A DNA stretch of 64,000 nucleotides from Escherichia coli O157:H7 (GTDB taxonomy: Bacteria > Pseudomonadota > Gammaproteobacteria > Enterobacterales > Enterobacteriaceae): the NCBI RefSeq assembly GCF_013167455.1, contig NZ_CP038328.1; one strand, given 5' to 3'. Position 1 is the first letter of the stretch, and the number at the start of each line of letters is the position of its first letter. Shown one piece after another: positions 46,201-49,200 of this stretch. The position numbers were made by a program.

Positions 46201-49200
46201 GTGACTGCAGTGGCTTCCCCGCCGGCATGTACCCTCAGTTCACCGTTCTGATTTATGGTGGTGTTACCGGCAGCGCCACCTGCCTTAACAACCTGCCAGC
46301 CCCCCTCGTTAATTACCGTGTTCAGCGCAAGTCCGTCCCTGTGCACATATTGGTAACCGCCATTCAGTGTGGTATTCAGGGCCCTTCCGTGTACCGACTG
46401 GTCACCACCTGCGTAAATGAGAGTGTCACGGGCTAGCCCGGAAAATAAGATAATCTGCCGTCCATTTTTGTTGATGGTGGTGGATTCTGCTGTTCCCTGG
46501 ACCTTCTGACCCGTATACGAGTTGTCAGAATCAGGGCCGCCTTCTGCGCCGGTGTTGATGATGGTTCCTGTTGCCAGCCCGCCACTTTTAACGCTCTGGT
46601 AACCGTCGCGGTTGATAATTGTACCGGTGGCAACCCCGCCCTCATGCACCCACTGCTCGCCTCTGTTATTCAGTGTGGTGTTCACCGCCAGTCCGTTCAG
46701 GCTCTGTCCCCCGCCGTCACGAATAACCGTATCACTGGCTGTTCCCCCCTCCAGCACGACCTGACGACCATTTGTGGTGACAGTGGTGTTTCCGGCTATC
46801 CCGCCATTCTGTATCCATTGCCCACCGGTGTTTTCTTCACTGTCCGGCCCCAGTTCCAGCCCGGTACTGATGGTCATTCCGTTGGCCGTACCGAAGACAA
46901 TCTGGTTGTCATGATTTGTCAGTGTTCCATCGTTCACGGTTTCTCCCGCCTGTACAACCTTGTCAGCAGCCAGTGCCGGGACTGATGTGACAGCAGCAAG
47001 AGACAGCGCAACCGCCACACCGGCGCGTTTTCCCCGTGAGCGGGCCAGTTCGGAGGCCACCACCAGGGTGCCCGTAATGTGATTCCATACCAGCCTGTAG
47101 CTGGTGTTCAGATGTCGTTTCATCAGCTTTTCCTTACAGAGGGTGAATAAAAAAGCCGGTACCCACAAAAGTGGATACCGGCAGGTACAAAACAGAGTTA
47201 TCGGGCACAGCGATACGTCCCGGGCGTAAACGCTCTCCCCCTTCATCAGACAGAGAAGTATCAGTCTGTTGTGTGCAATTCCGTTCTGCATGATGAAGAG
47301 ATTCAGCTGCCTTTTCGCAGGCCATTAACCACTATAAACGATCGATATAAACGATCGATACCTGTTTTATCGATCGTTTTATTCTATTAACAGTAGAGCA
47401 GTCACGCAAGAGAAACAGGAGGGGCATGAGGTGTTTGTATCATGTTTTCAGTTGGTTAACGCAATGTAATCAGACATTTCCCCTGGCAGACTGTTCAGAA
47501 GAAAATCCAGTTCCATACCGCGCGGGCAACAGAGACCACCGTGTCACGGACGGCACGCAGAACTGTGCGTGCAACAGAGGCAACACAGACGCTCTCCACC
47601 GTGTCAAATATCCGGTCCACCGCACCGGTAAACTGTTCACGGGCCTGCCCCCAGACAGATTCCGTGCACAGCTCGTCCTGCAGGCGGGTCATCAGGGGAC
47701 TGGCGGCATGGTCGGGAAGCGCTGTCATGAGCGCACTGACCAGCGTATCCAGTTCCCAGCCGGTGCGGGCCGATACGGCAACAACCGGATGTACGGGCCG
47801 GAACAGCCGGAATACCGCATCTGTTTTTTCGCGAATGTTCTGTTCCTGTGCGGGAGAAGGCTGAATACCTGCCATATCCCATTCATGGCAGGGCTCTGTT
47901 TTGTCGGCCTGCGTCACCACAAACAGCACCTGCTGATGTCCCCGGTGCAGTATGTGTCGCCAGAAATACTCATCCACAGACAGGGCACGGTCATCGGCTT
48001 TAATCAGCCACAGTACCAAGTCCAGTTCAGGCAGAATGTCACGGTACAGGGCTTCATACTCTGCATCCCTGTCCCGGCTCTCGCCCACCCCGGGCAGGTC
48101 AGTGATAACCATGCTGTGACCATGGCCACTCAGACGGAAGCGCCGCACTTCCCGGGTGCCGGCGTGAACATCACTGACCGGGGTGACCTCCCCCTGAAAC
48201 AGTGCATTACAGAGTGAGGATTTACCGGCCCCGCTTTTACCCATAATGCCAATCACGGGTTCGTGACTGGTGAGTTTGCGCAGATGTTCCAGGATGTGAC
48301 GGGAAAGCGAGTAAGGCAGGGAGGAGAGCGGTTTTTCAATTGCCTCAATGGCATCAGACGGATTCATACATGTATTCCCGGTGAAAAAAGACAAAACCCC
48401 GCGCACCGGAAAGGTGGCGGGGGATTCACAACGATAATATCTGTCTGAAATTATTTAGGATGCAGGTATCTTCTGATAATCATACATCCCGAATTTTGTT
48501 CTTAATAGTTGAGTAGTGGTATTTGGTTTCCCTGAGAGAATATAAAGGTGAATCATGCTGCATTGAGTTTGATTCAATTTGTACTGAGACAAGTATCTTC
48601 ATGATTATAATCAAAAGTTGGGTGGATTGGTCTGGCGCTCATCATTTTTTCGAATAAACTCACTAATTATTGCCCCCCCCAAAGGAGATGATTTCATGTA
48701 TAATTGTGGTGAATCATATTCAGAATACGACATATCATTATCTGACGATGAAAACTATGACGATGACTATTATCGTGAACGCCCGTGTCCGGGAGAAGTT
48801 TTCGGCTATGATAATACTGAGGATAATGATGAGGCGGCATCTGATTATGCATTAAAAATAAATGAAAACTCTGATTAATACGGGGATAGCTGATAATAAG
48901 ACAATCAATGACAGATATTAATGAATAAACATAATCAGGCGCTCAATACTTGGTTTAATCTGGGCGCCTGATTAAAATCTGAGGAAACATATAATAATTT
49001 TCATCAAAATAGTATTTATGTACTAACTAAGCTGGATTTGAACCTCTATTTCTGGGTATTTGTTATCACTTAATCCATTACTGCTCCTCCTTCAGCATAT
49101 GTCGTATCCGTTGAAGGATTTACGCATATCGGTAACGTCGGCAACGAGCCAGATGCGGGTACCTGACGGGAGTGAGATCATCGTCCCCTCCCGGTCAGTT

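What the first reader, a model, noticed from the sequence alone, without database searches (positions are those of the whole stretch)
48673..48878. C8 homopolymer immediately upstream of a small, highly acidic ORF
A run of eight cytosines (48673..48680) sits directly 5' of an AAGGAG ribosome-binding site and a 60-aa ORF that is extremely rich in Asp, Glu and Tyr. Poly-C tracts of this length are classic slipped-strand phase-variation sites. Small, very acidic proteins in mobile elements include DNA-mimic antirestriction proteins. Both readings are speculative.
Basis: inference. Interest (0 to 1): 0.35.

Follow-up and report, generated by a model that had tools for sequence, protein, structure and literature searches.

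The report
Orphan acidic mini-gene with variable C-run
This is an annotated but uncharacterised 60-residue, very acidic, probably unfolded protein gene (Sakai ECs_1394) on an E. coli O157:H7 genomic island, and the C-run in front of it varies in length between strains but is not placed where it could switch the gene on and off.

Summary
C8 lies at 48673-48680, AAGGAG at 48682-48687, and the ATG at 48696 opens a 60-aa ORF ending at 48878 (D11, E8, Y8; net charge about -16). The window is the SpLE1/OI-48 island at serX of E. coli O157:H7, and the ORF is Sakai ECs_1394 (WP_000282125.1, "hypothetical protein").

The ORF is probably a real gene.
- Synonymous changes are in excess in its frame (14 S, 10 N; null 6.7 S; p about 0.0009).
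- The block from promoter to stop codon is about 5 times better conserved than its flanks.
- It has a strong ribosome-binding site and a stable 3' hairpin.

It is also an orphan. It occurs almost only in E. coli and matches nothing in Pfam, PHROGs, NCBIfam, PADLOC or PDB. AlphaFold gives no fold (pLDDT 60). Several lineages carry frameshifted copies.

The C-run is derived from a non-repetitive TAACCATCCC. It is a slippage hotspot: among complete genomes, C7 occurs in 46, C8 in 381, C9 in 35 and C10 in 3. It lies in the 5' UTR, outside both the coding frame and the predicted promoter spacer. C9 is shared by a set of O157:H7 strains that includes the 2006 spinach-outbreak isolates.

Phase variation is therefore not supported. 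The DNA-mimic idea is untested and weakly disfavoured. Interest is low.

The parts
48584..48611 (+). Predicted sigma-70 promoter of the small gene (CTGAGA, 16 nt spacer, TATAAT)
   Evidence: 10 of 12 consensus matches. The scan alone is weak (5 sites found, 3.2 expected). The TATAAT is invariant in all 49 aligned copies and the -35 changes in only one. No transcription start data were available.
48612..48672 (+). Highly conserved 5' leader upstream of the C-run
   Evidence: Against the most divergent haplotype (L009), 48584-48669 differs at 1 of 86 positions. The stretch just upstream (48470-48583) differs at 19 of 115. The leader folds less stably than shuffled sequence (z +2.2).
48673..48680 (+). 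C8 homopolymer in the 5' UTR, derived and length-polymorphic
   Evidence: One search gives the sequence; other alleles read TAACCATCCC (24 of 49), TAACAATCCC, TAACCACCCC or TACCCCCCCC. Exact-flank census in complete genomes: C6 0, C7 46, C8 381, C9 35, C10 3. Flanks differ by 0-2 of about 545 nt within the C-run haplotype.
48682..48687 (+). Shine-Dalgarno sequence AAGGAG, 8 nt before the ATG
   Evidence: It is kept in all alleles, reading GAGGAG in one lineage.
48696..48878 (+). 60-codon ORF for an acidic, probably disordered protein (Sakai ECs_1394, WP_000282125.1)
   Evidence: Annotated as hypothetical protein. 14 synonymous versus 10 non-synonymous segregating substitutions, null mean 6.7 synonymous, p = 0.00085. 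Other frames score 4-6 synonymous, except one antisense frame with 13, which is open over only the first 38 nt of the ORF. 7 of 183 differences against L009, versus 13-21% in the flanks. No family match. AlphaFold2 pLDDT 59.8, no secondary structure.
48743..48772 (+). Imperfect 15-nt tandem duplication inside the ORF (encodes DDENY / DDDYY)
   Evidence: family D3. A 68-aa variant, P0008, carries extra in-frame DDENY units.
48932..48974 (+). Stable stem-loop 54 nt after the stop codon, probably the 3' end or stabiliser of the transcript
   Evidence: 14-bp stem, -22 kcal/mol, z -5.8, no U-tract after it on the + strand. Haplotypes show one compensatory G-C to A-T change, and G.U wobbles that pair only in the + strand RNA (read by eye).

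Best explanation
The locus is a self-contained small accessory gene (promoter, 5' leader, strong ribosome-binding site, 60 codons, 3' hairpin). It sits at the junction between the conserved backbone (YfjP-like GTPase and the Ag43/Cah adhesin) and the variable cargo of an E. coli integrative island, here SpLE1/OI-48 at serX of O157:H7. It encodes a lineage-restricted, strongly polyanionic polypeptide that is most likely intrinsically disordered. Shown: the gene is conserved as a coding sequence, it is an orphan, and it is dispensable in some lineages. Inferred: the product acts by electrostatic binding to a basic partner, for instance as a decoy for a nucleic-acid-binding protein. I give this about 0.25. 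Its target is unknown. The C8 run is not a switch. It arose in the EHEC/EPEC-type allele by A/T-to-C substitutions and loss of TA from a non-repetitive TAACCATCCC. As a homopolymer it now gains and loses single C's by replication slippage, giving C7 to C10 between strains. Because it lies in the untranslated leader, these changes leave the protein and the predicted promoter untouched. The creation of the run probably removed a weak hairpin that buries the ribosome-binding site and start codon in the older alleles. If it has any effect, that effect is a constitutive or graded change in translation efficiency.
For: Identity and context: (ECs_1394 in SpLE1; serX tRNA at 34481-34568; GTPase, isrC-like RNA and Cah to the left; partial ISEc23 from 49107 on the right). 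Coding: frame-specific synonymous excess. The block from promoter to stop differs at 9 of 284 positions from the most divergent haplotype, against 47 of 269 in the flanks. Strong ribosome-binding site. The ORF is intact in 42 of 49 copies across about 10% flank divergence and in two different downstream contexts. Orphan: every homologue with a source name is E. coli apart from rare Klebsiella entries. An exhaustive scan of 1.84 billion representatives found only variants of the same protein and two low-complexity matches. Disorder: AlphaFold2 pLDDT 59.8, pTM 0.11, no secondary structure. Net charge -16 and GRAVY -1.41 place it far on the unfolded side of the Uversky charge-hydropathy boundary (my calculation: mean hydropathy 0.34 against a boundary of 0.51). 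Tract: derived state and intermediates. Length census. No length change in the 39 copies without the run. C9 shared by TW14359, EC4115, SS52 and RM6067W. Translation initiation region: the older allele folds to -10 kcal/mol with the ribosome-binding site and AUG paired. The C8 allele folds to -4.9 kcal/mol with an open centroid (local hairpin -4.5 versus -0.4).
Against: No transcription, translation or proteomic evidence could be found. The selection test rests on only 24 segregating sites from closely related alleles. Recurrent frameshift alleles (7 of 49 copies, at least three independent events) show the gene is often lost. The older-allele hairpin is not significantly more stable than shuffled sequence (z -1.2 to -1.9). 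The predicted promoter is only a consensus match. The AlphaFold alignment is very shallow (14 sequences at 93% identity or more), so failure to fold is weak evidence. The proposed polyanion-decoy mechanism has no direct support. Some C7/C9 calls may be homopolymer errors in long-read assemblies.
Confidence: 0.6

Rival explanations
1. The C-run is a slipped-strand contingency switch that turns expression of the small gene, or of a neighbour, on and off at high frequency.
For: A C8 run is long enough to slip. Lengths C7 to C10 coexist among near-identical haplotypes. Closely named O145 isolates differ: RM9872 has C8 and RM9873-C1 has C7. The tract is the one hypervariable spot inside an otherwise very conserved leader.
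Against: The tract is in neither the ORF nor the predicted promoter spacer, and the protein is identical for C7, C8 and C9. The distribution is narrow around C8 (82% modal). C9 is shared by a set of O157:H7 strains that includes the 2006 spinach-outbreak isolates. No promoter that uses the tract as a spacer passes the scan on either strand. By general knowledge, not tested here, homopolymer contingency loci are rare in mismatch-repair-proficient E. coli, while non-coding mononucleotide runs are commonly polymorphic between strains without any switching role.
Confidence: 0.06
2. The 60-aa protein is a DNA-mimic anti-restriction or anti-defence factor (working like Ocr, ArdA or other small acidic mimics) that protects the island or the cell's incoming DNA.
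For: Extreme negative charge. It sits on a mobile island at the edge of a cargo region that often carries defence genes. In ECGC74-type islands it lies 1.1 kb upstream of, and co-oriented with, a complete type I restriction-modification operon. Other contexts carry a DNA methyltransferase or a restriction subunit S fragment nearby.
Against: No similarity to any antirestriction family, PADLOC model or solved structure. No predicted fold or secondary structure. Absent from phages and nearly absent from plasmids. The type I arrangement is rare (14 genomes), and right-hand neighbours vary widely: iutA, cadB, a vWA protein. The island already carries an annotated antirestriction protein, ECs_1402.
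Confidence: 0.1
3. The ORF is not a functional gene. It is an open frame in AT-rich, purine-rich spacer DNA that annotation pipelines pick up, and its conservation reflects recent spread of the island.
For: Orphan status. Frequent frameshift alleles. Two other frames across the same stretch are also open. Low-complexity composition. No expression data were found.
Against: Synonymous excess specific to the annotated frame (p about 0.0009). The ORF and its leader are 4-5 times more conserved than adjacent DNA in the same haplotype comparison, which recent spread cannot explain. Strong, conserved ribosome-binding site at ideal spacing.
Confidence: 0.2
4. The acidic protein is a partner or antagonist (antitoxin-like or regulatory) of the divergently transcribed YfjP-like GTPase, or of a gene lost when the IS66-family element was truncated next to it.
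For: About 830 of 5,426 complete genomes carry the full segment, GTPase-proximal end included, and the retrieved copies show the GTPase gene next to it with a shared 290-bp divergent control region. Small acidic, partly disordered proteins are typical neutralisers of basic partners (general knowledge). The right flank is a truncated ISEc23, so a downstream partner gene could have been lost.
Against: About 700 other genomes have the same GTPase-Ag43 backbone without this ORF. The ORF stays intact where the GTPase is truncated by IS26. No downstream co-oriented ORF is conserved.
Confidence: 0.07

Closest known systems
Strain-polymorphic non-coding mononucleotide repeats of E. coli (simple sequence repeats used for strain typing; general knowledge, not retrieved here)
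   Same: A G/C homopolymer of 7-10 nt in non-coding DNA that changes by single units between otherwise near-identical strains, with lengths shared among related strains.
   Different: Here the run can be traced to its origin from a non-repetitive decamer. It abuts a ribosome-binding site inside an unusually conserved leader.
Homopolymer contingency loci of Neisseria, Haemophilus and Campylobacter (slipped-strand phase variation)
   Same: Poly-C/G run of about 8 nt, with length variation between isolates.
   Different: Those tracts lie inside reading frames or between the -35 and -10 elements, so one unit flips expression. This tract lies in the 5' UTR, and the protein and predicted promoter are unchanged.
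DNA-mimic inhibitor proteins (T7 Ocr, ArdA, small acidic anti-CRISPR or anti-RecBCD mimics)
   Same: Small size, very low pI, carried on mobile DNA.
   Different: No sequence or profile similarity, no predicted fold, and not in phage genomes or plasmid leading regions.
Taxonomically restricted orphan small genes described in EHEC by combined RNA-seq and ribosome profiling (PMC4765031, PMC5597208)
   Same: Short, E. coli-restricted ORF with its own expression signals and no homologues.
   Different: This one is already annotated (ECs_1394). It does not appear in the held supplementary files of those studies.
Dam/OxyR epigenetic phase switch of Ag43 (agn43/flu/cah)
   Same: It is the established phase-variation device of this locus. 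Its three GATC sites are present at 47341-47376, 1.3 kb from the finding.
   Different: It works by methylation-dependent OxyR binding, not repeat slippage. It controls the adhesin gene, not the small ORF.

Membership tests
Slipped-strand (homopolymer) phase-variable contingency locus | Homopolymeric tract long enough to slip (about 7 nt or more of G/C) | tested here: met
   C8 at 48673-48680.
Slipped-strand (homopolymer) phase-variable contingency locus | Tract lies inside the reading frame or in the promoter spacer, so that a one-unit change switches expression | tested here: not met
   The tract is in the 5' UTR, 62 nt after the predicted -10 and 1 nt before the AAGGAG. C7, C8 and C9 alleles encode the same 60-aa protein.
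Slipped-strand (homopolymer) phase-variable contingency locus | Tract length differs among closely related isolates | tested here: met
   C7 46, C8 381, C9 35, C10 3 records with identical 40-nt flanks. Part of this variation is shared among related strains (C9), and part may be assembly error.
Slipped-strand (homopolymer) phase-variable contingency locus | Length heterogeneity within a clonal population, and reversible ON/OFF phenotype | not testable with these tools
   No read data or experiments were available.
DNA-mimic antirestriction proteins (Ocr, ArdA) | Sequence or profile membership in the family | tested here: not met
   No family matched in Pfam, NCBIfam or PADLOC, and PDB gave no hit at E up to 10. 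The only PHROGs match was insignificant (E 0.31, to a virion structural protein).
DNA-mimic antirestriction proteins (Ocr, ArdA) | Strongly acidic surface | tested here: met
   19 Asp+Glu against 3 Lys+Arg in 60 residues.
DNA-mimic antirestriction proteins (Ocr, ArdA) | Compact fold displaying carboxylates in a DNA-like array | tested here: inconclusive
   AlphaFold2 gives pLDDT 59.8, pTM 0.11 and no secondary structure, but the alignment is shallow.
DNA-mimic antirestriction proteins (Ocr, ArdA) | Encoded in an early phage region or plasmid leading region | tested here: not met
   No phage record and 6 of 72,556 plasmid records, all predicted non-mobilisable. Here it is on a chromosomal island.
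DNA-mimic antirestriction proteins (Ocr, ArdA) | Inhibits type I restriction enzymes | not testable with these tools
   Needs a restriction-alleviation assay.
Type II antitoxin | Co-transcribed adjacent toxin gene | tested here: not met
   No conserved co-oriented ORF downstream. The right flank is a hairpin followed by truncated ISEc23 or unrelated cargo.
Genuine protein-coding gene (generic criteria) | Frame-specific excess of synonymous change and higher conservation than the flanks | tested here: met
   14 S to 10 N against a null of 6.7 S, p = 0.00085. ORF 3.8% divergence against 13-21% in the flanks.
Genuine protein-coding gene (generic criteria) | Evidence of transcription and translation | not testable with these tools
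   Nothing found in the held papers or supplements.

The most novel reading that the evidence does not exclude
ECs_1394 is a young, E. coli-restricted gene for a polyanionic disordered protein that neutralises a DNA-binding host or defence protein, such as a restriction enzyme or a nucleoid silencer. In this reading the EHEC lineage raised its output by converting a hairpin that occludes the ribosome-binding site into a poly-C run, which now also tunes translation in small heritable steps.
Probability: 0.08. Interest if true: 0.5.

Novelty: new member of a known kind. Interest (0 to 1): 0.2.

Why it matters
It matters little beyond annotation. The work shows that a "hypothetical protein" present in about 15% of complete E. 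coli genomes, including O157:H7, O26, O103 and O145 strains, carries the signature of a selected coding gene. It is therefore a fair candidate for small-protein studies. The poly-C run should be treated as a noisy homopolymer marker, shared by some related strains, rather than as a virulence-related switch. If the protein proved to be a decoy for a DNA-binding defence or silencing protein, it would add a very small, disordered type to the anti-defence repertoire of chromosomal islands.

Tried and rejected
(1) Remote homology. Word-indexed search of 5.8 billion proteins, exhaustive HMMER scan of 1.84 billion representatives, Pfam, PHROGs, NCBIfam, PADLOC and PDB. Only near-identical E. coli variants and low-complexity matches were found.

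(2) Rfam. Nothing at or near threshold in 48300-49200. The only nearby family is the isrC/IS102 RNA between the GTPase and cah.

(3) Structure. The AlphaFold2 model was too poor to justify a fold search, so none was run.

(4) An N-terminal extension through the C-run (TTG at 48618 or 48670) was rejected. The non-tract alleles put these frames out of register, and neither start has a ribosome-binding site.

(5) The alternative +1 and antisense ORFs over the same stretch were rejected. They show 4-6 synonymous against 18-20 non-synonymous changes. The one antisense frame with 13 synonymous changes is open over only the first 38 nt of the ORF.

(6) A promoter using the tract as spacer was considered by eye on both strands. 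None passes the scan.

(7) Direct or inverted repeats bounding the 48470-49035 segment, as for a small mobile cassette. Only short matches of the kind expected by chance were found.

(8) Species-representative genomes. The exact-pattern scan found nothing, so no copy with these exact flanking motifs is present in any species-representative genome.

(9) Literature. No main-text or held-supplement mention of ECs1394, Z1209 or Z1649. The neighbouring GTPase ECs1395 is listed only as SNV-rich in one feedlot study.

(10) The type I restriction-modification neighbourhood was tested as an ancestral context. It proved rare, at 14 genomes.

Full report
**1. What is there**

The sequence reads ...ATTATTG-CCCCCCCC-AAAGGAGATGATTTC-ATG....
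- C8 lies at 48673-48680.
- AAGGAG lies at 48682-48687, and eight bases later comes the ATG at 48696.
- The ORF ends with TAA at 48876-48878, giving 60 codons.
- The product is MYNCGESYSEYDISLSDDENYDDDYYRERPCPGEVFGYDNTEDNDEAASDYALKINENSD. It has 11 Asp, 8 Glu, 8 Tyr, 6 Asn and 6 Ser, and only 3 basic residues.

A single C8 is not more than base composition predicts for 64 kb (1.58 expected). It is nonetheless the longest G/C run in the window and sits in 35% G+C DNA.

**2. Where it is**

- The window contains tRNA-Ser(GGA) at 34481-34568.
- The DNA matches E. coli O157:H7 at 100% identity.
- In strain Sakai this is the right-hand part of the phage-like element SpLE1 at serX, and the ORF is ECs_1394, "hypothetical protein". 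In RefSeq the protein is WP_000282125.1.
- To its left, on the other strand, lie a YfjP-like GTPase (47495-48367), an isrC/IS102-type RNA match (47142-47377) and the Ag43-family adhesin Cah.
- To its right lies a truncated ISEc23 (IS66 family), starting at about 49107.
- About 1,520 complete genomes share the first 50 bases next to the GTPase gene, but only about 830 carry the rest of the segment. In the others the DNA upstream of the GTPase is unrelated cargo.
- The small gene therefore lies at the border between island backbone and variable cargo. Homology on the right ends near 49035 where the IS remnant is absent.

**3. Is the ORF a gene?**

I collected 49 copies: 9 from complete genomes and 40 from metagenome contigs found with a gapped pattern.

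Evidence for a real gene:
- 42 copies encode a protein of 60 or more residues.
- Among 24 segregating substitutions, 14 are synonymous in the annotated frame. Placing the same mutation types at random positions gives a mean of 6.7 synonymous (p = 0.00085).
- The other frames give 4-6 synonymous changes. The one exception is an antisense frame with 13, which is open over only the first 38 nt of the ORF.
- Compared with the most divergent haplotype, the block from the predicted promoter to the stop codon differs at 9 of 284 positions. The flanks differ at 47 of 269.
- The ribosome-binding site is kept everywhere.
- A 14-bp hairpin (-22 kcal/mol, z -5.8) follows the stop codon. It shows one compensatory change, plus wobble pairs that work only in the sense RNA.

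Evidence against:
- Seven copies carry frameshifts, arising from at least three events.
- No expression data could be found.

I put the chance that this is a functional coding gene at about 0.75.

**4. What is the protein?**

- It is an orphan. Two very large protein searches returned only E. coli variants (with rare Klebsiella or Salmonella records) and low-complexity noise.
- No profile library or solved structure matches it.
- AlphaFold2 gives pLDDT 59.8 and pTM 0.11, with no helix or strand.
- Its charge and hydropathy place it deep in the "natively unfolded" region of the charge-hydropathy plot (my calculation).
- The gene is absent from phage genomes and almost absent from plasmids.
- The most economical reading is a polyanionic disordered polypeptide that binds a basic partner. 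Nothing here identifies that partner.

**5. What is the C-run?**

Origin:
- It is derived. Most alleles read TAACCATCCC at this spot, and others read TAACAATCCC, TAACCACCCC or TACCCCCCCC.
- Only one haplotype group, the one found in O157:H7, O55:H7, O26, O103 and O145 strains, has a pure C-run.

Length variation:
- I queried complete genomes with exact 40-nt flanks and different run lengths. The counts were C6 0, C7 46, C8 381, C9 35 and C10 3.
- Within this haplotype the flanks differ by 0-2 bases in about 545, so the run is a clear mutational hotspot.
- The 39 copies without a run show no length change.
- C9 is shared by a set of O157:H7 strains including TW14359, EC4115, SS52 and RM6067W. 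That these include the 2006 spinach-outbreak isolates is my own knowledge. Sharing among such strains suggests inheritance rather than flickering.
- Some C7 and C9 calls may be long-read homopolymer errors.

Position:
- The run lies in the 5' UTR. It is 62 nt after the only promoter-like site with a perfect TATAAT and 1 nt before the AAGGAG.
- It lies neither in the frame nor in the predicted promoter spacer.
- The classical phase-variation mechanism therefore does not apply.

Possible effect on translation:
- In the older alleles the ribosome-binding site and AUG can pair into a hairpin of about -10 kcal/mol.
- In the C8 allele this drops to -4.9 kcal/mol with an open centroid.
- A T-to-C change at 48695 travels with the C-rich alleles.
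- The origin of the run may therefore have raised translation. This is an inference only, because the hairpin is not significantly better than shuffled sequence.

**6. Comparison with known systems**

- The tract behaves like the ordinary strain-polymorphic mononucleotide repeats of E. coli non-coding DNA. It fails the positional criterion of contingency loci.
- The protein shares only its charge with DNA mimics such as Ocr and ArdA.
- The established phase switch of this locus is the Dam/OxyR site with three GATCs upstream of cah, at 47341-47376.

**7. Verdict**

The gene is annotated but uncharacterised and deserves a modest note as a selected orphan small protein. The phase-variation reading is not supported, and the anti-restriction reading is unsupported but not excluded. 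Interest 0.2.

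Noticed in passing
window 47341-47376 (minus strand), upstream of cah (start codon near 47123): Three closely spaced GATC sites (aaaacGATCgataaaacaggtatcGATCgtttatatcGATCgtt) lie in the cah/Ag43 upstream region, overlapping the Rfam IS102/isrC match at 47142-47377. This looks like the known Dam/OxyR epigenetic phase switch of Ag43, so it is the real phase-variable element of this locus.
   Followed up: partly
window 48584-48669: The predicted promoter and leader of the small gene are even better conserved than the ORF: 1 of 86 differences against the most divergent haplotype, versus 19 of 115 just upstream. The reason is unknown. It could be an operator or an RNA-level control.
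   Followed up: partly
window 48695 and 48673-48680: The base just before the start codon (C or T at 48695) co-varies with the C content of the tract. TTTCATG goes with TAACCACCCC, TACCCCCCCC and poly-C, while TTTTATG goes with TAACCATCCC and TAACAATCCC.
   Followed up: partly
window 48932-48974: A very stable stem-loop (14 bp, -22 kcal/mol, z -5.8) lies 54 nt after the ORF and has no U-tract on the + strand. Haplotypes keep it through one compensatory change and through G.U wobbles.
   Followed up: partly
window 48743-48772; protein P0008: An imperfect 15-nt tandem duplication inside the ORF encodes DDENY/DDDYY. A 68-aa variant with extra in-frame DDENY units exists in some E. coli, so this is a second slippage-prone feature.
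   Followed up: no
window 39810-44163 (minus strand): A patatin-like phospholipase, an RdcB-family protein and a dynamin-family protein form a co-oriented triad next to cah. The dynamin-family protein and the YfjP-like GTPase give weak PADLOC matches to LeoBC/LeoA, and the patatin protein matches phospholipase effector models. This may be a defence-like module.
   Followed up: partly
L056 (E. coli ECGC74, NZ_CP125887.1) 9162-17464: In a rare island variant (14 complete genomes) without the IS66 remnant, the small ORF lies 1.1 kb upstream of, and co-oriented with, a type I restriction-modification operon (R, S, AAA ATPase, M).
   Followed up: partly
window 49107-49688: A truncated ISEc23 (IS66 family: tnpA plus the first codons of tnpB) is joined to the small-gene segment. 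The same junction appeared in 7 of the 8 complete-genome copies examined, which come from diverse E. coli with different genes beyond it. It looks like an old, shared breakpoint.
   Followed up: partly
window 34553-34559: The only other G/C run of 7 or more in the window is a C7 within the span of the tRNA-Ser (serX) gene, at the island's insertion site.
   Followed up: no
window 9472-9521, 18652-18694, 28790-28881: Rfam matches to the PyrC leader and to the ES036 and ES056 sRNAs in the chromosomal part of the window. They fit the serX-pyrC region of E. coli.
   Followed up: no
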